A DNA stretch of 32,000 nucleotides from Candidatus Harpocratesius repetitus (GTDB taxonomy: Archaea; Asgardarchaeota; Lokiarchaeia; Sigyniarchaeales; Promethearchaeaceae): assembly GCA_021498095.1 (NCBI GenBank), contig JAIZWK010000001.1, positions 1,830,001 to 1,862,000 on the forward strand. Reading direction: 5' to 3'. The translations under genes and the position numbers were made by a program. Below are positions 2,349 through 10,800 of this stretch, piece by piece. Below the pieces are notes generated by a model, which made no database searches, was not told the origin of the DNA, and saw only the letters and a program-made list of their open reading frames with translations. Position 1 is the stretch's first letter; every line of letters begins with the position of its first letter.

Positions 2349-3422
2349 ATGAATGATTATAACCCTTTTCCTCAAGATCTCTCTTCTTTGCACGATAAGA
2401 TTTCAGATAATCCATTTAAGAATTATACGATCAGAGATTATCAAGAAATTGGGAAAAAATACGATCTTTTTCTCTCTGAAGCAAGTGTAGCTTATCAAAA
2501 AGGAAAATCTGTGTTGCATAATATAAGTTTGTTTTTAAAACCAGGGGAAATATTAGGATTGATTGGAGGAAGTGGTGCTGGGAAAAGCACATGCATGAGA
2601 GTAATGACCGGTCAAATCAAACCTCCTCAATTGACCCATGGGTTTGCAGTTACTGCAGGATATCGTGCGGTTAGGGATAATTTAAAATTAATTCATCAAA
2701 TTGGCTATGTTCCACAATTAGAATATCTCTCTTTATACGAACAATTTTCGGCTCTAGATAATTGCCTGTTCTTTGGTAGGAATTATTGTATTTCAAAGAA
2801 ACAGATTTTAAAAAGAGCTCGTGAGATTTTAGGTATTTTGGGATTTGAAAATGAAGAATTACTGAATAAACCTGTTAAATATCTTTCAGGTGGCGAACGA
2901 AAGCGAGTCTCAATTGCTGTTGGGCTTATAAATACACCAAAAGTATTATTCCTAGATGAACCGACTACTGGTTTAGATCCACATCTTAGAATCGGTGTTT
3001 TAAATTTCCTATTAAAGATTAACAAGGAATTTAATACAACAATGGTAATCGTATCACATGATTTAGAAATCGCGGATTACTGCACTAAAGTTGCTATTCT
3101 TAATTTTGGAGAACTGGCAGGTTTTGGAAAACCAAAAGATCTCGTGGAATCTTTACCAAGCCATGGGAAGATGTTAAATATTCATCTAAAATCCTATAAT
3201 TCACGGATTCATCTTAGAAAAATAAAAGAAATTGCTGGAATTCGTTATGTCTTAAATGCAGGAAGAAATCAAATTAAACTGTTTTCTGATGAAATTGAAA
3301 ATTTAAATTTAATAATTTCACAATTAAGAGAGATTGGTTTGGAAATTGAACATTTTAGTTTAGATCAAGCTGTTTTTTTAGAATATTTTCGCATAAAAGG
3401 AAAACATATTGAGGGGGTTTAG
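2349..3422 (+). CDS. ABC-2 type transporter ATP-binding subunit (A1)
   Basis: Walker A GGSGAGKST, Q-loop VPQ, signature LSGGERKR, Walker B LFLDEPT, H-loop VSHD, and a C-terminal DUF4162/ACT-like domain. Confidence 0.95.
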   Translation: MNDYNPFPQDLSSLHDKISDNPFKNYTIRDYQEIGKKYDLFLSEASVAYQKGKSVLHNISLFLKPGEILGLIGGSGAGKSTCMRVMTGQIKPPQLTHGFAVTAGYRAVRDNLKLIHQIGYVPQLEYLSLYEQFSALDNCLFFGRNYCISKKQILKRAREILGILGFENEELLNKPVKYLSGGERKRVSIAVGLINTPKVLFLDEPTTGLDPHLRIGVLNFLLKINKEFNTTMVIVSHDLEIADYCTKVAILNFGELAGFGKPKDLVESLPSHGKMLNIHLKSYNSRIHLRKIKEIAGIRYVLNAGRNQIKLFSDEIENLNLIISQLREIGLEIEHFSLDQAVFLEYFRIKGKHIEGV

Positions 3423-3424
3423 AG

Positions 3425-4612
3425 ATGTCAGAAGATATTTTATCGGATACTCGATCACGATTATTAAGAATTACCAATATGGTAAGAAAAGAAGTAAAAA
3501 CATTAATTTCTGATAAAACTGCTATGTTTATCCTCTTTTTCATTCCATTTTTGTTGATTCTAATATTAGGAACTTCACAACCGAATTTGGAGGCGACTAA
3601 AACCACTATTTGGATCATTGACTATGATCATTCTGAAAGATCAGAACAATTTATCGAGACAATGAAATCTTTGAATCTATCTTTGGCAGTGGGTCAAAGA
3701 TTAACCCCAAAGATTTACGCTTCTGGTGAATTCGCCCCTATTGAGCCAGACCTTGGGGAAGTGGAATCTTATGGAAATGTTACTGAAGAATTGGCTAGAC
3801 GAACAATTACCACCCAATATTTAGATGCATATATTATTTTACCTCAAGGATTTGAACAAGATATTTCAATAAATGGAACAACCACAATTATTGTTTACTA
3901 TGATGCAATTGATTTTACAAAAATGATTGTCTCTGATATGATAGTTTTGGTGGGTTCAAGTGAGATTCAAGTGAAGAATATGTTATTTGAACGCGATATT
4001 ATATATTTTCCTGAGACTCGGCCTAAGAATTATGATCTTAATATCTTGGATCTTGGTGCACCTTATTTTGTTCCATTGATGCTCTTCTTTACCATGCAGT
4101 TGATTTCTACTCAATCAATTGTAGGGGACATTCCTCTTCGGCGATTACTTAATACAAGTTTGAAACGGGGAGAAGTTATAACTGGAAAATTAATTGCTTA
4201 TACAATTATTGGTATTTTTCAAGTTCTGCTTAGTATGTCAATGCTTTCAATATTTAAGGTTACAATGCATTGTTTATGGTTAGATCTATTTTTGATTCTT
4301 CTTTTAAATTCCATTGTAGGCATCACCATGGGTATATTTATTTCAACTATAACAAAAAGCCGTTTACAAGCGTCACAATTATTCCTTTTACTCTTTTTTT
4401 TGATGTATATAAACGTATATTATGTTCGAAATATATTCTTTCTAACATTTATTCCTATTGAACAAACTCGAATTGTCTATGAATTTCTTGCTTATCGTGG
4501 AAAAGGAATGCTCTCACTTTGGGCTCCAATAATGTATATGGGTATTACAGGATTATTTTTCTACCTGGCTTCAGTGATTTATATAAAATTTATTAAAAAG
4601 GAGTTTATATGA
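3425..4612 (+). CDS. ABC-2 type transporter permease (P1)
   Basis: N-terminal KEVKTLISDK plus TM1, a large extracytoplasmic loop (IIDYDHSERSEQF...AYIILPQGF), then five TM helices with the RRLLNTSLKRGEVITGK motif. Starts 2 bp after the ATPase. Confidence 0.9.
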   Translation: MSEDILSDTRSRLLRITNMVRKEVKTLISDKTAMFILFFIPFLLILILGTSQPNLEATKTTIWIIDYDHSERSEQFIETMKSLNLSLAVGQRLTPKIYASGEFAPIEPDLGEVESYGNVTEELARRTITTQYLDAYIILPQGFEQDISINGTTTIIVYYDAIDFTKMIVSDMIVLVGSSEIQVKNMLFERDIIYFPETRPKNYDLNILDLGAPYFVPLMLFFTMQLISTQSIVGDIPLRRLLNTSLKRGEVITGKLIAYTIIGIFQVLLSMSMLSIFKVTMHCLWLDLFLILLLNSIVGITMGIFISTITKSRLQASQLFLLLFFLMYINVYYVRNIFFLTFIPIEQTRIVYEFLAYRGKGMLSLWAPIMYMGITGLFFYLASVIYIKFIKKEFI

Positions 4613-5835
4613 TGAAAGGTAAATTTAAATTGTTCAGTAATTCTTTACTTTCGAAATTGGCAGGATGGAAAGAAGATCATTTAATAAAACCCCTTAAACG
4701 TTATGGAGCCTTAGTAGTGAAAGAGATTAAAGTCTTGATTAATGATAAAGGTGCAATGATAATCACATATGTCATTCCCTTAATTGTAGTTCTTGTGTTA
4801 ACTATAGGTTCTAGCGGCCAAATTATTTCAACTGATGATTCCAGCAATAGTGCCAGAATAAATGAATTATTTAAAAATGAAATACCAATAATTGGGATCA
4901 TCGACTACGATCAAAGTGAAGGTTTTCCAGATCGAGATCTTTCTTCAGATTTTCTCGCAAAATTTCAAGAAGCACAAACAGAAGGGCTCTGTACTCTTTT
5001 TGAAACAACAAATCAAAGCGAATTGGAATTTTTATTAGGAGATGGGGAAATAAATGCATTTATAATCATTCCACCCATGTTTGAGTTTAATCTTTCAATT
5101 CATCTTCCAGTAATCATTCCAATCGTAATTGATTCAATAAATACGGTCAATCTTCAATCTACTCAGCAGATTGTGGATAGTATAATTCAAGATTTTAAGC
5201 AAGAAAATGATTTTACTGGAGTATTTAAAATAGACAAGAATTTGGTGAATGTACCTGATAAGAATCAAATATTTTTCGCCGCTGCCCCTTATATAATTCC
5301 TTTAGTGATATTTGGGATTGGTTGTCTGACTTCTACTCAAAGTATCGTCTCAGATATACCAAAAGATCGAATGGTTTTGACCCCAACGAATAAAGGTGAA
5401 ATGATGCTGGCTAAAGTATCTGCAAATATTCTTATTCAGCTGGGTGTTGTCATTATTTTTATTATAACAAGTCTTTTTGTTAATTTACAAATTATGAGTA
5501 ACTATTTTATGTATTTTATTGTGTTATTTTTAATGGAGATTAATGCCGTATTAATTGGTGTAGCTATTTCAGCTATTTCTAAAACACCCTTGGCTGCTTA
5601 TCAATATTTTATTTTTGTTTTTATTTTTCAAATTGTGGCTATTTTATTTATTGAAAATCCGATGATATTGATGACAATGCCTCTTTACAACGGTTATCAA
5701 TTACTTTTACAAATTGTGCTCCGGGGACAGACTTTTTGGTCAGTACGTGTGAATTTTTTTAGTCTGGCGGTTGAATCTTTAATTATATATTTCATTGGAT
5801 ATATTGTGTTTAAAATTCAGAAAACAATGCTTTGA
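4609..5835 (+). CDS. ABC-2 type transporter permease (P2), paralogue of P1
   Basis: KEIKVLINDK plus TM1, IIDYDQS loop, AFIIIPPMF, RMVLTPTNKGEMMLAK. ATGA overlap with P1. Confidence 0.9.
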   Translation: MMKGKFKLFSNSLLSKLAGWKEDHLIKPLKRYGALVVKEIKVLINDKGAMIITYVIPLIVVLVLTIGSSGQIISTDDSSNSARINELFKNEIPIIGIIDYDQSEGFPDRDLSSDFLAKFQEAQTEGLCTLFETTNQSELEFLLGDGEINAFIIIPPMFEFNLSIHLPVIIPIVIDSINTVNLQSTQQIVDSIIQDFKQENDFTGVFKIDKNLVNVPDKNQIFFAAAPYIIPLVIFGIGCLTSTQSIVSDIPKDRMVLTPTNKGEMMLAKVSANILIQLGVVIIFIITSLFVNLQIMSNYFMYFIVLFLMEINAVLIGVAISAISKTPLAAYQYFIFVFIFQIVAILFIENPMILMTMPLYNGYQLLLQIVLRGQTFWSVRVNFFSLAVESLIIYFIGYIVFKIQKTML

Positions 5836-5861: not shown

Positions 5862-7790
5862 ATGGAGATAAAAATGGGACCGGTTCAAGATGAAATTGAA
5901 GAAGAAATTGTGGAACAGAGTATTTTTGGACGTAATCAATTTAAAGAATTGATAGAATGGCTTCAAGCACGAAAAATGTTCCAAATACGATGTGAAATCA
6001 CAGGTATGTATAACTTAACCGAGCAATTTTTCAAAGGTAAAGGTGTTATTCTGAAAAGATATGATGGCCGGATTTTCCCAAATACTGTTTATATTCTGCT
6101 TAATGAAGGAGATATTGGAAAAGATGAGATTTTAATTGGTAGGCGAATAATAGAAGTTAGTAATCAGCAATTAATTCAGCCATTTCAAACTTTCGGAATG
6201 AATCAACTTGAAATTTCAGAATTATCAGAAGCTATTGCTCCTAATGTATTTGTTCTTGAAAATTCATTTAAAAAAGATTTGCAGCACCAAACCTTTTTTC
6301 GTAATAGAGAATATGATAGAAGTATTGATTTTTTGACTTCTTTAATTAAAAAATATGAAGTTAATGCTTATATCGAAGGGATACTTGTTTCAAAAACAAA
6401 ACAGATTCCTTGTATTATTACAGGAATGGTCAAATCAGTTGTTGGAAAAGATATTTATATTTCATTATGGGATGCTTTTGATCCTACTGATCCATTGAAT
6501 GATGAAACTAAAGAATGGCTAACCAGGGACTGGATAATCCAAATAGGTCAAATGGGTATAAACAAGGTTCATCCGAAATATTTACTGTTTGAAACAGGAG
6601 AAGAACTTTCATTAACAAAAAAGGTTTTAATTACAAAAAATTTATCCGTTTCATTTTCTGGAAGAAAAATTATTGAAGATGTATCTTTTACCTTGGAAAA
6701 GGGAGAGATTATGGGAATAATCGGAGAATCTGGAGCAGGTAAATCTACTACAGTTAAAGCAATACTCGGGGAAGTTGATTATTCTGGAGAAATACTTGTT
6801 TTTGGCATTGATGCACATGATACTAAAGCGATTGCTCCATTTATTGGATATGTCCCACAAGATCTTTCACGTATGTATCAAAATTTCAACTGTTTGGAGA
6901 ATATTGTTGCCTTTGGAAGACAATATGGGGTTCCAGATGAACTTTTAATTCAACGAGGAAAAAAAATTCTTACAGATTTGGGTATTGGACATGTCGCTAA
7001 TCAACCGGTTTCTTCGCTTTCAGGGGGTCAGAAAAGACGCGCTTCAATTGCAATCGCTATGGTTCATAATCCATATCTCATATTTTTAGATGAGCCCACT
7101 TCTGGTCTAGATCCATTAGCGAGATATGAGTTATGGAATTATTTGGATTTGATAAATAAAGAATATGGGATTTCTTTAGTAGTCATTTCTCATTATTTAG
7201 ATGAAATTGAATATTGCGATAAAGCTTGCATTTTCTTACGCGGGATCGGGTTTTATGACTTTAATTCTCCTCAAGGATTAAAAAAGGCTCTACCTGGAAA
7301 AGGATTGGCATTAGAAGTTACACTAGAAACTGTTAACATAGAAGCAGTAGAAGTACTAAAGCAAATTCCTGGGGTCGTTTTTACAATTCAACGTGGAGAA
7401 CGAATACGATTATTAAGTGACATTCCTTCCAAAATATTAGGTGATCGTGTCATTGAATCATTACAACGTGCGAAAATTCCCCTTCACAGTATTACATATA
7501 AAGTTTCAGTAGATATGGTTGATTATTTTACCTATGTGAGTGTAATTCATCAGCAAGAAGGGGGAGGTGACTTAGGTCATCTTTCAAAACTGGAAATACT
7601 TGAAATAACAAAAGGTGTAAATAATACCAGTGAGCCTGGAATTGTAACTTTATCAGATAACCAAATTTTAATGGTTGATGTTGACATGGATAAGATTAAT
7701 GTTCCTGTAGAAAAAATTGATGAAACGCGCGCCAGCTTGAAAGAGCAAAAGGATAAACTTAAAAAAAAAAATCTGAAACATAAAAAGTGA
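5862..7790 (+). CDS. ABC-2 type transporter ATP-binding subunit (A2) with a ~250-aa N-terminal extension
   Basis: Walker A GESGAGKST, VPQ, LSGGQKRR, IFLDEPT, ISHY. Has an extra N-terminal beta-rich region and a charged C-terminal tail. Confidence 0.95.
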   Translation: MEIKMGPVQDEIEEEIVEQSIFGRNQFKELIEWLQARKMFQIRCEITGMYNLTEQFFKGKGVILKRYDGRIFPNTVYILLNEGDIGKDEILIGRRIIEVSNQQLIQPFQTFGMNQLEISELSEAIAPNVFVLENSFKKDLQHQTFFRNREYDRSIDFLTSLIKKYEVNAYIEGILVSKTKQIPCIITGMVKSVVGKDIYISLWDAFDPTDPLNDETKEWLTRDWIIQIGQMGINKVHPKYLLFETGEELSLTKKVLITKNLSVSFSGRKIIEDVSFTLEKGEIMGIIGESGAGKSTTVKAILGEVDYSGEILVFGIDAHDTKAIAPFIGYVPQDLSRMYQNFNCLENIVAFGRQYGVPDELLIQRGKKILTDLGIGHVANQPVSSLSGGQKRRASIAIAMVHNPYLIFLDEPTSGLDPLARYELWNYLDLINKEYGISLVVISHYLDEIEYCDKACIFLRGIGFYDFNSPQGLKKALPGKGLALEVTLETVNIEAVEVLKQIPGVVFTIQRGERIRLLSDIPSKILGDRVIESLQRAKIPLHSITYKVSVDMVDYFTYVSVIHQQEGGGDLGHLSKLEILEITKGVNNTSEPGIVTLSDNQILMVDVDMDKINVPVEKIDETRASLKEQKDKLKKKNLKHKK

Positions 7791-7802: not shown

Positions 7803-10800
7803 ATGCAACAAACTCGACAAAAAACAAAGATATATGGTAAAATCTTCCGAAAACAAGTCAATATCTTCTTTATTTTCCTTATTTTAATGATTCCCGGATT
7901 ATTTCTCCATTTTCAATCACCAGCAATACAAAATAATAATTTTAATTTTCTTCAAATGATAAATAAATCCACTCCGAATTCACTAAAAACATCTACTTAT
8001 GCTCATATTGATCCACGATTAGCCGATCTTATCAAAAATAATGAAGATCCATATAAGAAAGTAAATGTTCTTCTTTTTTTTTCCGATAAACCTGTTAAAT
8101 ATTCTGAATTATCCAAATATGGAACAATACAAATCTCATTTACTTTACTTAAAGGATGTAAATTTGAAACTACTCTTAGTCATATCGAAAAATTGGGATT
8201 ATTGCCTTATATTCAATCAATTTGGTGGGATTTACCTATTCCTACTTCAATTCCCTCATCAAATATTATAGAATCTTCTTCTTTTTCAATAAAGGCTGAA
8301 TACAAAACTCAGAGCACTGAATTTGTAAATTTTACTAATGAAATTAACGCAAATCAGTTATGGCAGCGTGGTATTTCTGGAAAAGGTGTAGTTATTGCTT
8401 TGCTTGATACTGGTATTGATATTTCAGGTTCTGGAGGAGGCAATTTGGATGATTTAGACGATAACAGTTCAACAAACGATCCTAAATTTCTTGGTGGGGT
8501 ATCAATGGTTCCTGATGAACCTCTTTACTATACCGATTTAACAGGACGAGGAACTTTTCATGCAGGAATTGCTTGTGGGACTGCTGGATTAAATCCTGAA
8601 TATATTGGTGTTGCTCCAGATGCAAAGTACTTAAACGTGAAAATTTTCGATTCACTTGGGATAACATATTGGTCGTTTATGATATCTGGTATTGAGTGGG
8701 CTATTGAGCATGGAGCGGATATAATTCTATTTGTAGCCACTATTCCTGGATTGTATTTGGATCCAGTTTGCCAAATAGTGAATGCTGCCGTAGATCGTGG
8801 TGTAATCGTAATAACCCCTGTGGGTGATGATGGTCCTTCTTATATGAGCGTCAATACTCCTGGACAAGCCAATCAAGCAATTTCTGTTGGAGCTTACAAT
8901 TCAATAACTAAAGAAGTTTGGGAACATTCCAGTCGAGGGCCATCATATGATTTTCACGTTGGACCTGATGTAATCGCTCCTGGGGTTGATTTGATTGGAC
9001 CAAGGGCAAGATATCTAACGAATGAAAGTATAGAATTGGCAGTGAATTTTATAACTCAGATTTCACCCGAGATGACTGCTGTTTTGAATTCTCAATTGAA
9101 TTCCCTTCAAGCAGAATTTGATACTCTTTCAAATTCTATCCCAAAGTCACCTTACGGGACTCCTCTTTCTGAAGACTCAAGTTTTACTCGTGCTTCTGGG
9201 ACAGGTGCTGCAGCTGCAGTATGTGCTGGGGGTGTTGCTTTATTACTTAATGCTTTTCCTTTAGCTACTCCTGTAATTATTCAACAAGCTCTAATGCGAG
9301 GTGCACATTCTATTAGTTTTCCTCAAGATATTAATTCAGAAGGTTCAGGATTAATTGATCTATTGGCTTCTTATTCATGGCTCCAGGATTTTTATAAGAA
9401 AAACTTTACTGATTTTCAGAGTTCTTCAGTACCGCTTTTTTATTCAGGAATGATAACTAATGAAGATTTAACCAATGTATCTCAATACAGCACAGATCTG
9501 AATTATTCACAAATTGAAAACACTACTTTTTCAGCATTTATGAGTTCTCAAATGATGAGTTCTGCTTTAGTTATTAATACATTAAATGAAAGTAATCCAT
9601 TAAACGTTCAGAACATCTCAATACATCTTCCATTGAATCAATTTGGTGTTGGATACTCCCTTTCTGGAGATTCTGAAGATTTTGAATTTCATTGGTTATC
9701 AGAATTTAAGGTAGTAAAAGAAATGCATGAAATGGTAAATACAATTGTATATCCTGATGGATATCGAAGATATGTCAGTATTCTTGAATTTAATGGGCTT
9801 TATATTGCTTGCTTAGTGGAGACTTGGGCTTATATAGGGGAAAAGAGTGATACCATATCAACATTTAATTTTACAAGTCCCTTAACAGGGGAATCTTATC
9901 AGACTGGTTTAAATTTTTCAACCTTGAAATTGACTCATCGATTAAACGCCTTTAAATTTTCCTTTCATTTTATGAATGAGCGAAAAGATCATCAATCATT
10001 TAGAAACTTAACTTTAATTTCTTTTATAAAGGGAGATTTGTTTGTAAATGAAACAGGAACCTTAGATAATTTAAATTACAAAGGATTTGATGCAGAAAAT
10101 ACCTTAGAATTCATGAAGGACGATATAGTTATATTTGATTCACAATCTCAAATGATGTGGGTGGAAGATTTTGATAATTCATCGAATTTACTTAATAATC
10201 CAAGATACGCAGCAATTGGATTTGTATCTTCATCGCATAATTTGTCTTCTTTTGCAGTTGGGAATAGCTTTAACATCTTATTAAATATTTCTCAAGCTAA
10301 ATTGGCAAATTCTACTTGGAATTCAAATATTTCAAAAGATGTTGTTTTTTCACAAAAAAATTCAACTAATTCTCTTATCGATCCAAGTTTTGCACAACTT
10401 TATTCTTTAAATGATTTGGAATTTGGAACTACTTCTGAATTTAATGGAGTTATGTCCATTTCACAAGCAAATTCAATATCAGAATGTCGCGATATTGTTA
10501 AATCAAATGCTGAATTACTTCAAACAAATACAACTAACTATAATGTCACTGATCTGATTGTTTTTTCTGCCAGTTTTTCGAGAATTCATGAACCTCATGT
10601 TCCCTATCAATCATCTGTAAAAATTCTTAATTTAGGAAATCAAATTATTCCAAATACACAATTAGTTTTTTATTCAAATCGAACTGTAAAACATGGAGAA
10701 TCCGAGATTTATTCACGTATTATTTCTATTCAAAATCTTCAACCATTTAATTTAAAATCATATAATACTTCTTGGATTCCTCTGGATTCTGGAATTTATC

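What the first reader, a model, noticed from the sequence alone, without database searches (positions are those of the whole stretch)
8400..9230. Subtilisin homologue with His, Ser and oxyanion Asn all substituted: a pseudo-protease
Seen: LLD202TG is intact (GAT 8406-8408). The HGTHVAG motif reads G-R249-GTFHAG (CGA 8547-8549), the GN oxyanion motif reads G-D342-DG (GAT 8826-8828), and GTSMA reads GT-G468-AA (GGT 9204-9206). The surrounding scaffold motifs and the 5.3-kb frame are intact, so this looks like a maintained protein rather than a pseudogene. Known: S8 catalysis needs Asp-His-Ser. Three separate substitutions are unlikely to be sequencing error. Inference: a non-catalytic peptide-binding, scaffolding or regulatory role, analogous to the non-proteolytic receptor-binding role of mature PCSK9.
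Basis: partly seen in the sequence, partly recalled or inferred. Interest (0 to 1): 0.75.

Follow-up and report, generated by a model that had tools for sequence, protein, structure and literature searches.

The report
Conserved Asgard pseudo-subtilase on ABC-2 operon
The gene encodes a large surface-anchored protein whose subtilisin-like domain has lost its catalytic residues but is strongly conserved across Asgard archaea, always fused to a GIFT domain and usually next to ABC-2 transporter genes, so it is a selected non-enzymatic protease relative and not a broken gene.

Summary
In ORF 7803-13091 (1762 aa) the S8 domain keeps Asp202 (GAT 8406). It has Arg249 for the catalytic His, Asp342 for the oxyanion Asn and Gly468 for the catalytic Ser.

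It is not a decayed copy:
- 67 orthologues from Loki-, Hod-, Thor- and Freya-type Asgard archaea form one clade. 66 of them have Asp at the Asn position and only 4 keep Ser.
- The S8 core is the most constrained part of the protein (pN about 0.10-0.12, dN/dS about 0.05).
- The genome's other S8 genes that align across the motifs all keep the canonical residues.

The AlphaFold model best matches unprocessed pro-subtilases, so the protein probably stays a permanent zymogen-like fold.

The architecture is signal anchor, prodomain, pseudo-S8, beta-sandwich stalk, GIFT domain, TM helix and a conserved cytoplasmic tail. The gene order ATPase-permease-permease-ATPase-pseudoS8 recurs in distant Loki genomes and, rearranged, in a Thor genome.

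My best reading is a non-catalytic binding or scaffold module in a GldG-like accessory subunit of an ABC-2 transporter. That link is inferred and not shown.

The closest analogue is CspC, not PCSK9. The domain order resembles eukaryotic S1P, but sequence affinity to S1P is not specific.

The scan had already noted the same feature in orthologues from two other genomes (e1-2433322, e1-5415381).

The parts
2349..3422 (+). ABC ATPase A1 (357 aa)
   Evidence: Pfam ABC_tran 4e-26. A 330-357 aa ABC_tran gene lies in the same block in L016, L017, L020, L021 and L022.
3425..4612 (+). ABC-2 permease P1 (395 aa)
   Evidence: Pfam ABC2_membrane_3 6.3e-18. Gap of 2 bp to A1.
4609..5835 (+). ABC-2 permease P2 (408 aa)
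   Evidence: Pfam ABC2_membrane_3 7e-14. Overlaps P1 by 4 bp.
5862..7790 (+). ABC ATPase A2 (642 aa) with a roughly 250-aa N-terminal extension and a C-terminal extension
   Evidence: Pfam ABC_tran at residues 272-414. Long-form orthologues occur throughout Asgard lineages. It sits directly upstream of the pseudo-S8 gene in L016, L017, L020, L021 and L022.
7803..13091 (+). Pseudo-subtilase/GIFT membrane protein (P0001, 1762 aa), the gene of the finding
   Evidence: 12-bp gap after A2.
7851..7919 (+). N-terminal hydrophobic segment (aa 17-39) after a K/R-rich start: signal anchor or signal peptide
   Evidence: Kyte-Doolittle scan, the only 19-mer stretch with KD above 1.9.
7995..8228 (+). I9-like propeptide fold (aa 65-142), predicted to stay covalently attached
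   Evidence: Model residues 11-88 form a strand/helix unit with pLDDT above 90. The best Foldseek matches are the pro-forms 3afg and 3whi. It evolves fast (pN 0.34-0.52).
8379..9407 (+). Subtilase (S8) fold without a triad (aa 193-535)
   Evidence: Pfam, PDB alignment, model pLDDT mostly above 90. pN is 0.10-0.12 for aa 190-400.
8406..8408 (+). Asp202 (equivalent to Asp32), retained
   Evidence: GAT. D in 65 of 67 family members.
8547..8549 (+). Arg249 at the catalytic His position
   Evidence: CGA. The family has R 28, H 28, S 7 and single I/V/K/E.
8559..8561 (+). His253, four residues after the lost His (position of Val68 in HGTHVAG)
   Evidence: CAT. H in 35 of the 36 Loki-clade members and in none of the others.
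8826..8828 (+). Asp342 at the oxyanion Asn position, followed by Asp343: the family signature G-D-[DE]-G
   Evidence: GAT. D in 66 of 67 members, with D/E at the next position in 64 of 67.
9021..9137 (+). Helical-hairpin insertion in the S8 fold (aa 407-445), poorly conserved
   Evidence: Model helices 353-366 and 368-391. Conservation dips at aa 401-450.
9204..9206 (+). Gly468 at the catalytic Ser position; the following Met is Ala
   Evidence: GGT. The family has G 29, T 18, A 16, S 4, and A at the Met222 position in 64 of 67.
9522..11384 (+). Stalk of beta-sandwich (Ig/CARDB-like) domains (about aa 574-1194), rich in N-x-S/T sequons
   Evidence: Model m4c4312b60c54, pLDDT 79. Only generic multi-beta-sandwich matches at low TM. 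Weak CARDB hit. Sequons cluster at aa 500-1000.
11832..12368 (+). GIFT / DUF4350 domain (aa 1344-1522)
   Evidence: Pfam DUF4350 38.9 bits and IFT52_GIFT 36.6 bits, both above cut-off. The family profile hits IFT52 at 3.5e-15, the S1P GIFT subdomain at 8e-6 and WBP1 at 0.002.
12792..12851 (+). C-terminal hydrophobic helix (about aa 1664-1683) followed by basic residues: membrane anchor
   Evidence: Read from the sequence. It did not reach the KD 1.9 threshold, so the boundary is approximate.
12852..13088 (+). Conserved cytoplasmic tail of about 79 aa, predicted helical from its sequence pattern
   Evidence: Same length and pattern in all family members from Loki to Thor. pN 0.09-0.17. Absent from the active relative P0055.
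13187..13411 (+). Conserved 74-aa hydrophobic small protein downstream (possible sixth operon member)
   Evidence: ORF. 42% identical to the 74-aa gene at the same place in L022. A 74-aa gene is also called there in L021.

Best explanation
The S8 domain at 8379-9407 is a selected pseudo-enzyme. It keeps the subtilase fold and its N-terminal propeptide. The hydrolytic machinery has been replaced in steps: Asn to Asp at the base of the family, Ser to Gly/Thr/Ala several times, and His to Arg or Ser once in the Loki clade. The SLGG wall of the substrate cleft is also replaced. What the family conserves at the old active site is an acidic cluster: Asp202, Asp342 and Asp/Glu343, next to the invariant G-x-G-T and Thr467-x-Ala469.

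The protein is a membrane protein with a large extracellular region. The domain order is signal anchor, propeptide, pseudo-S8, glycosylated beta-sandwich stalk, GIFT domain, TM helix and a conserved 79-aa cytoplasmic tail. It is co-transcribed with a two-ATPase/two-permease ABC-2 transporter.

I infer that it is the GldG-like accessory subunit of that transporter. In this reading the pseudo-S8 serves as a non-catalytic binding or scaffold module, locked in a zymogen-like state because it cannot cut off its own propeptide.

Shown: the substitutions, their conservation, purifying selection, the fold, the domain order and the conserved gene neighbourhood. Inferred: physical association with the transporter, retention of the propeptide, and ligand or cation binding by the acidic cluster.
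For: The substitutions are verified.

Conservation and selection:
- In 67 orthologues the counts are D32 65/67, N155 to D 66/67, D/E at 156 64/67, Ser kept in only 4/67, and Met222 to Ala 64/67.
- The family is one clade (SH-aLRT 96). Its sister is an active S8-GIFT group with D/H/N/S (P0055, P0058, P0070).
- The S8 core has the lowest pN, 0.10-0.12, against saturated pS. dN/dS is about 0.05, versus 0.17 for the whole gene.
- It is also the best conserved stretch across the whole family.
- A 94%-identical relative from another study differs mostly at third codon positions, 31 of the 40 differences listed.
- The six other full-length S8 genes in the same genome keep the canonical D/H/N/S residues; three shorter hits are partial or poorly aligned.

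Fold: the model has pLDDT 85.6 and includes a propeptide unit. The top matches are the unprocessed ProN-Tk-SP 3afg and pro-subtilisin E 3whi.

Domains and context:
- The GIFT domain scores above Pfam cut-offs and its profile matches IFT52, S1P GIFT and WBP1.
- The order A1-P1-P2-A2-pseudoS8 recurs in L021, L022 and L020. In L016 an A1-size ATPase gene is inverted. It is rearranged in Thor L017.
- Intergenic gaps are 2, -4, 26 and 12 bp.
- The active Nitrososphaerales relative P0070 has no ABC neighbours.
- The gene is usually single-copy, with an intact 1400-1790-aa frame in nearly every match, in many Asgard families.
Against: No direct evidence links the protein physically to the transporter.
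- The Freya-type orthologue P0040 is not next to ABC genes.
- The Pfam ABC_transp_aux match is below cut-off (21.1 against 34.7 bits).
- The gene was not found in many complete genomes of the same order (family f2: 4 of 40, one of them a weak partial match) or in several other families. It is therefore not a core function.
- The propeptide evolves fast (dN/dS about 0.5), and the propeptide-to-S8 linker has low pLDDT. Retention and docking of the propeptide are therefore uncertain; another protease could remove it.
- The tools gave no coordinates, so the geometry of D202, R249, H253 and D342 is untested.
Confidence: 0.6

Rival explanations
1. The protein is a free-standing surface protein, such as an adhesin, a cell-envelope scaffold or a receptor. 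Its pseudo-S8 head binds a partner (another cell, a matrix polymer, or one of the genome's active subtilases, as CspC/CspA act with CspB). The ABC-2 genes are merely co-expressed or export something else.
For: There is a long glycosylation-rich beta-sandwich stalk. The topology has TM segments at both ends. The Freya orthologue lacks ABC neighbours. The genome holds several active S8 proteases that could be partners. CspC sets a precedent for a signalling pseudo-subtilase.
Against: ABC-2 linkage is retained across about 35-76% identical orthologues in Loki and Thor lineages, with tight or overlapping gene spacing. The GIFT domain is the hallmark of GldG-type ABC accessory proteins. The conserved cytoplasmic tail implies an intracellular partner.
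Confidence: 0.25
2. The domain is still an enzyme that uses a non-canonical set of residues. Candidates are Asp202 with the shifted His253 in the Loki clade, or Asp-His-Thr with an Asp oxyanion residue in the Thor clade, by analogy with PC2 or sedolisins, which use Asp in the oxyanion hole.
For: Asp202 and Asp342 are almost invariant. His253 is conserved in 35 of 36 Loki-clade members. 18 members have Thr and 4 have Ser at the nucleophile position, and Thor members keep His. From established knowledge, not tested here: proprotein convertase PC2 is active with Asp at the oxyanion position, so the first step (Asn to Asp) need not kill activity. P0053 (D/H/S with Asp) may still be active.
Against: This protein and 28 others have Gly at the nucleophile position, and 16 have Ala, so no side chain can attack. 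The residue at the nucleophile and His positions varies freely among close relatives (G/T/A/S and R/H/S/I/V/K/E), which is the opposite of a catalytic constraint. The SLGG substrate-binding wall and Met222 are also replaced.
Confidence: 0.05
3. The S8 module has no ligand of its own and persists as a structural partner of the GIFT domain. In S1P the GIFT subdomain packs on the S8 loops that carry the oxyanion residue. The S8 module would then serve as a folding or rigidity scaffold for the ectodomain.
For: In S1P the GIFT and S8 subdomains interact through the loops that support N338, with a putative Ca2+ in an acidic pocket near the interface (PMC11231238). The domain order is the same here. 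The most conserved residue of the family is the Asp at that very position.
Against: About 730 residues of beta-sandwich domains separate S8 and GIFT here, against one P-like domain in S1P. No model of the two together could be made because of the size limit. Sequence affinity to S1P is not specific.
Confidence: 0.1
4. The gene is a decaying pseudogene or an assembly or sequencing artefact.
For: None beyond the loss of catalytic residues.
Against: The frame is an intact 5.3 kb. The same substitutions occur in dozens of independent assemblies. dN/dS is about 0.05 in the S8 core.
Confidence: 0.01

Closest known systems
CspC / CspA pseudoproteases of Clostridioides difficile (S8 family)
   Same: Subtilase fold with Asp kept and His and Ser replaced (CspC: D105, T170, G485). 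The propeptide stays uncleaved because the triad is dead, and the protein has a non-proteolytic signalling or receptor role (PMC6636752). The Ser-to-Gly change is the same as here.
   Different: Csp proteins are soluble spore proteins of about 550 aa with a jelly-roll insertion. NCBIfam CspC_non_triad scores 49 bits against a cut-off of 675. They have no GIFT domain, no TM, no ABC link, and are bacterial. This is independent (convergent) loss of catalysis.
Eukaryotic site-1 protease (S1P / MBTPS1 / SKI-1)
   Same: Same domain order: signal, prodomain, S8, beta-sandwich, GIFT, TM, cytoplasmic tail (PMC11231238 and PMC12067269). The family GIFT profile hits the S1P GIFT subdomain at E 8e-6. The S8 model matches 9csd and 8uw8.
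   Different: S1P is an active, self-processing protease with D218/H249/N338/S414. Here the stalk is about 730 aa instead of one P-like domain. The S8 domain is closer to Tk-SP and bacterial subtilisins than to S1P, and the GIFT domain is closer to IFT52 (3.5e-15) than to S1P. No S1P-specific Pfam families were hit.
GldG-type accessory proteins of ABC-2 transporters (GldA/GldF/GldG; Pfam ABC_transp_aux / GIFT)
   Same: GIFT-class domain in a large extracytoplasmic region flanked by an N-terminal and a C-terminal TM segment. The gene sits beside ABC-2 permease and ATPase genes.
   Different: GldG has no subtilase module, no long stalk and no conserved cytoplasmic tail, from my general knowledge. 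The ABC_transp_aux match here is below cut-off. GldG itself has no known molecular mechanism.
Tk-SP / pro-subtilisin zymogens (3afg, 3whi)
   Same: Closest solved structures and sequences: propeptide plus S8 in the unprocessed state.
   Different: Those are active enzymes trapped by mutation. Here the unprocessed state would be the native end state.
PCSK9
   Same: An S8-family protein whose biological role is binding and not cleavage of other proteins.
   Different: PCSK9 keeps the triad, cleaves its own prodomain and is blocked by it (PMC11231238 discussion). It is not a pseudo-enzyme by sequence.

Membership tests
Peptidase S8 (subtilase) homologous superfamily | Significant match to the S8 profile and fold | tested here: met
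   Pfam PF00082 112 bits against a cut-off of 21.8. Foldseek gives E 6.6e-29 to 3afg and TM by target 0.87-0.92 to subtilisins.
Peptidase S8 as an active peptidase | Asp-His-Ser triad | tested here: not met
   Asp202 is present, but the His position is Arg249 and the Ser position is Gly468.
Peptidase S8 as an active peptidase | Oxyanion-hole Asn (Asn155 equivalent) | tested here: not met
   Asp342. Asp in 66 of 67 family members.
Peptidase S8 as an active peptidase | Autocatalytic removal of the propeptide | not testable with these tools
   The propeptide fold is predicted and the best matches are unprocessed pro-forms. Cleavage needs intact-mass or N-terminal sequencing.
Csp-type pseudoproteases (CspC/CspA) | Family-level sequence match and jelly-roll insertion | tested here: not met
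   NCBIfam CspC_non_triad scores 49.3 bits against a cut-off of 675, a local match only. The insertion here is a helical hairpin, not a jelly roll.
Site-1 protease (MBTPS1) | Domain order prodomain-S8-beta sandwich-GIFT-TM-tail | tested here: met
   compared with PMC12067269 Fig. 1 legend.
Site-1 protease (MBTPS1) | Intact catalytic residues D/H/N/S | tested here: not met
Site-1 protease (MBTPS1) | Specific (closest) sequence relationship to S1P | tested here: not met
   S1P ranks below Tk-SP and the subtilisins for P0001 (1e-13 against 1e-28) and for the active relative P0070 (1.4e-24 against 1.2e-46). No phylogeny including eukaryotic S1P was made.
GIFT domain (GldG / IFT52 / OST48 / S1P) | Profile match to GIFT-class families | tested here: met
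   IFT52_GIFT 36.6 bits (cut-off 27.2) and DUF4350 38.9 bits (cut-off 30.4). The family profile hits IFT52 at 3.5e-15.
GldG-like ABC-2 accessory subunit | Match to ABC_transp_aux (PF09822) | tested here: inconclusive
   21.1 bits against a cut-off of 34.7. Precomputed hits to PF09822 are listed for several orthologues.
GldG-like ABC-2 accessory subunit | Gene linked to ABC-2 permease and ATPase genes | tested here: met
   Window and L016, L017, L020, L021, L022. Not in L018.
GldG-like ABC-2 accessory subunit | Physical complex with the transporter | not testable with these tools
   Needs biochemistry. The one co-folding attempt gave no verdict (see Tried and rejected).

The most novel reading that the evidence does not exclude
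The archaeal S8-GIFT-TM proteins are the prokaryotic kin of eukaryotic site-1 protease. They comprise an active form (in Nitrososphaerales, and possibly in this genome at C1:689986-693849, where the GIFT hit is sub-threshold) and this Asgard-wide pseudo-enzyme form. In the Asgard form the dead protease head has become the extracellular sensor or effector of an ABC-2 engine. It would be driven or read out through the TM helix and the conserved cytoplasmic tail, in an FtsEX-like mechanotransmission arrangement built on an S1P-like ectodomain.
Probability: 0.12. Interest if true: 0.8.

Novelty: new variant of a known kind. Interest (0 to 1): 0.55.

Why it matters
Pseudo-subtilases with a proven role are few; CspC and CspA are the textbook case. 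This is a second, independent and much older example. It is a family of 1400-1800-aa surface proteins kept under strong selection in many Asgard lineages, usually as one copy per genome.

It offers three things:
- A natural series of stepwise loss of catalysis (Asn to Asp first, then Ser, then His) on a dated tree.
- A candidate handle on the unknown function of GIFT/GldG-type ABC-2 accessory proteins.
- A prokaryotic protein with the same domain order as eukaryotic S1P, in the lineage closest to eukaryotes.

My literature searches found no paper connecting Asgard archaea with GIFT, IFT52, MBTPS1 or GldG, or describing an Asgard pseudo-subtilase.

Tried and rejected
- Co-folding of the A2 ATPase (alignment A5) with the cytoplasmic tail (alignment A4) gave 'no answer' (score 0.00). 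This is no evidence either way.
- The RNA search listed no RNA holder for window:8300-9300, so expression could not be addressed. The laid runs were contigs only.
- Fold searches with the 745-residue stalk model returned only generic multi-beta-sandwich proteins at TM 0.1-0.27, such as alpha-2-macroglobulins, integrins and CARDB proteins. No specific family could be assigned, and in particular no S1P P-like domain could be recognised.
- phmmer of the C-terminal third against PDB found only IFT52. S1P appeared only with the family profile.
- dS is saturated even between the closest available orthologues (pS 0.65-0.77). The dN/dS values are therefore rough, and some regions gave no estimate.
- Geometry of the old active site could not be measured because no tool returns model coordinates. 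This covers whether R249 bridges D202 and D342 and whether H253 is buried.
- The co-occurrence of His253 with loss of the catalytic His maps to a single branch, so it cannot be counted as co-evolution.
- The first Pfam call on paralogues exceeded the residue limit and was repeated with fewer proteins.
Full report
1. OBSERVATION

The ORF 7803-13091 (+) encodes 1762 residues without a stop. Pfam places Peptidase_S8 at residues 193-502 (E 3.7e-32).

The HMMER alignment to the closest solved relative, Tk-SP (3afg/9ues), aligns the query motif G-R-G-T-F-H-A-G with G-H-G-T-H-V-A-S. It aligns V-G-D-D-G-P with A-G-N-S-G-P. It aligns S-G-T-G-A-A-A with P-G-T-A-M-A-T, where these PDB entries carry Ala at the nucleophile position (inactive mutants).

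So Asp32 is kept, His64 is Arg, Asn155 is Asp and Ser221 is Gly.

Contigs of the probable source run are identical here. A 94%-identical contig from another study shows no listed difference in these codons. Of its 40 listed differences, 31 fall on third codon positions.

2. NOT A DECAYING COPY

A search of 5.8 billion proteins with residues 150-560 returned a family of 1420-1810-aa proteins. They are named, where named at all, from Promethearchaeota/Lokiarchaeia, Hodarchaeales, Thorarchaeota and Freyarchaeota, and all combine Peptidase_S8 with DUF4350/IFT52_GIFT.

In an alignment of 67 family members and 7 active relatives the counts are:

| Position | Family members (67) |
|---|---|
| Asp32 | D in 65 |
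| His64 | R 28, H 28, S 7, single I/V/K/E |
| Asn155 | D in 66 |
| Residue 156 | D/E in 64 |
| Ser221 | G 29, T 18, A 16, S 4 |
| Met222 | A in 64 |

All 7 active relatives have D/H/N/S.

A maximum-likelihood tree groups the 67 as one clade (SH-aLRT 96). Its sister is the active S8-GIFT group P0055/P0058/P0070, the last from Nitrososphaerales.

On that tree Asn to Asp is basal and happened once. Ser was lost several times (A/T in the Thor clade, A in Freya, T or G in Loki). His was lost once at the base of the 36-member Loki clade (support 99), on the same branch where His appears four residues later (35 of 36).

The positions of the former nucleophile and general base vary among close relatives, which is the opposite of catalytic constraint.

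3. SELECTION

Across the whole family the S8 core is the best conserved stretch of the protein.

Codon comparisons with the two closest orthologues (L021, L022) give these values:

| Region | pN |
|---|---|
| S8 core (aa 190-400) | 0.10-0.12 |
| Whole gene | 0.22-0.31 |
| Propeptide | 0.34-0.52 |
| TM plus tail | 0.09-0.17 |

pS is saturated at about 0.7. Where dS could be estimated, dN/dS is about 0.05 for the S8 core.

The genome (one 4.36-Mb contig) has other S8 genes. The six full-length ones keep the canonical residues at all four positions; three shorter hits are partial or poorly aligned. Only this gene clearly lacks them.

4. STRUCTURE

AlphaFold2 on residues 55-575 with 74 aligned sequences gave pLDDT 85.6 and pTM 0.86.
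- Model residues 11-88 (protein 65-142) form a compact strand/helix unit in front of the S8 fold.
- The linker (model 98-120) has low confidence.
- A helical hairpin (model 353-391) is inserted before the GT-x motif.

Foldseek ranks the unprocessed pro-forms first: ProN-Tk-SP 3afg (E 6.6e-29, 486 columns) and unautoprocessed pro-subtilisin E 3whi. Mature subtilisins follow, and S1P (9csd, 8uw8) is at ranks 11 and 35.

With no nucleophile the propeptide cannot be removed autocatalytically. The native state is therefore probably zymogen-like, as shown experimentally for CspC. This step is inferred.

The canonical S-L-G-G wall of the substrate cleft reads A-T-I-P here and varies in the family. 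I therefore do not think the old cleft binds peptides in the canonical way.

The conserved feature at the old site is an acidic cluster (D202, D342, D343) with invariant glycines and Thr467. Cation or basic-ligand binding, or a salt bridge to R249 in the Loki clade, are possibilities I could not test without coordinates.

5. REST OF THE PROTEIN
- A K/R-rich N-terminus is followed by the only strongly hydrophobic 19-mer stretch (aa 17-39).
- Residues about 574-1194 fold as a chain of beta-sandwich domains (pLDDT 79). Structural matches are only generic.
- There are 33 N-x-S/T sequons against about 22 expected, concentrated in the stalk.
- Residues 1344-1522 match DUF4350 and IFT52_GIFT above Pfam cut-offs.
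- A profile of this region from 56 family members hits IFT52 (3.5e-15), the GIFT subdomain of S1P (8e-6, chain residues 695-862) and yeast WBP1/OST48 (0.002).
- A hydrophobic helix at about 1664-1683 is followed by basic residues and a 79-residue tail. The tail's length and pattern are kept from Loki to Thor members but are absent in the active relative P0055.

6. CONTEXT

Upstream, in the same direction, lie an ABC ATPase, two ABC-2 permeases and a second ATPase with N- and C-terminal extensions. The gaps are 2, -4, 26 and 12 bp.

The same five-gene order is found next to orthologues P0003, P0004 and P0013. It is found next to P0027 with an A1-size ATPase gene inverted. The Thor orthologue P0041 has the order permease-A2-pseudoS8, followed by an A1-size ATPase gene.

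It is not found beside the Freya orthologue P0040 or the active Nitrososphaerales protein P0070.

The long A2-type ATPase is itself widespread in Asgard lineages. A conserved 74-aa hydrophobic protein follows the gene.

In a sample of 201 genomes of the phylum, the family-specific stalk profile found full-length matches. These were usually one per genome, with open frames of 1400-1790 aa, in several families: f1 3/3, f7 41/43, f8 5/5, f12 17/19, f19 6/6. It found none in many others, including 36 of 40 genomes of family f2 in the window's own order. The gene is widespread but dispensable.

7. MECHANISM

The best-supported reading is that this is the extracytoplasmic accessory subunit of the adjacent ABC-2 transporter.

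It resembles GldG in three ways: a GIFT domain, a TM segment at each end, and gene linkage to the transporter. To this it adds a stalk, a dead subtilase head locked with its propeptide, and a conserved cytoplasmic tail that implies an intracellular partner.

The head would act by binding, not cutting. I put 0.6 on this full statement. Within it, 'maintained non-catalytic subtilase homologue' stands at about 0.95 and 'works with the ABC-2 transporter' at about 0.6.

The rivals are a free-standing adhesin or receptor (0.25), a structural partner of the GIFT domain as in S1P (0.1), residual non-canonical catalysis (0.05) and a pseudogene or artefact (0.01).

8. COMPARISON WITH KNOWN SYSTEMS

The closest functional precedent is CspC/CspA. 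The resemblance is convergent, because the Csp family models score far below cut-off.

PCSK9 is not a pseudo-enzyme by sequence.

The domain order equals that of S1P (prodomain, S8, P-like sandwich, GIFT, TM, tail), and GIFT is said to be unique to S1P among the PCSK family. However, the S8 domain here and in the active archaeal relative scores better with Tk-SP and bacterial subtilisins than with S1P. The GIFT domain scores better with IFT52. Common ancestry with S1P is therefore open, not shown.

9. LITERATURE AND EARLIER NOTES

Full-text searches found no paper joining Asgard or Lokiarchaeota with GIFT, IFT52, MBTPS1 or GldG, and none describing an Asgard pseudo-subtilase.

Earlier notes of this scan had flagged three related things:
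- the operon (e1-5445241);
- the S1P-like architecture on this window (e1-5445244);
- the same substitutions in orthologues from two other genomes (e1-2433322, e1-5415381).

I tested these claims here and did not rely on them.

10. VERDICT

The feature is a new, ancient and well-conserved variant of a known kind, a subtilase pseudo-enzyme, in an undescribed architectural and genomic setting. Interest 0.55.

Noticed in passing
window 13187-13411 (+): A 74-aa hydrophobic small ORF lies just downstream of the pseudo-S8 gene. It is 42% identical to a 74-aa gene at the same place in L022, and a 74-aa gene is also called there in L021. It is a possible extra operon member.
   Followed up: partly
window 5862-6610 (+), N-terminal part of ATPase A2: The second ABC ATPase carries a roughly 250-aa N-terminal extension that is conserved in long-form orthologues across Asgard lineages. 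Many Thor/Odin-type orthologues carry a precomputed PF11495 hit, which I recall as the TrmB regulator C-terminal domain (not checked here).
   Followed up: partly
window 15818-18757; L021 17959-20918; L022 20489-24154: An ESCRT-II (EAP30, Vps25-like) plus Vps4 cluster lies 2.7 kb downstream. It keeps this neighbourhood with the ABC-2/pseudo-S8 operon in the two closest orthologous loci. No functional link was tested.
   Followed up: no
own genome C1:689986-693849 (L015): A 1287-aa S8 protein with canonical D/H/N/S has a weak IFT52_GIFT hit directly after the S8 domain (E 8e-4, below cut-off). It is a possible active S8-GIFT paralogue in the same genome, with a more S1P-like spacing.
   Followed up: partly
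L017 15413-22147: In the Thor locus the pseudo-S8 gene is followed by an ABC ATPase and then a 2244-aa protein with no Pfam hit.
   Followed up: no
P0053 and P0013 (orthologues): P0053 keeps Asp, His and Ser with Asp at the oxyanion position, so it may be an intermediate that is still active. P0013 has reverted to Asn at the oxyanion position while lacking His and Ser.
   Followed up: no
phylum sample: Besides the full-length family, many genomes have 800-1300-aa proteins that match only profile positions of about 428-590 of the stalk (E 1e-11 to 1e-18). This suggests a shared beta-sandwich module in other surface proteins.
   Followed up: no
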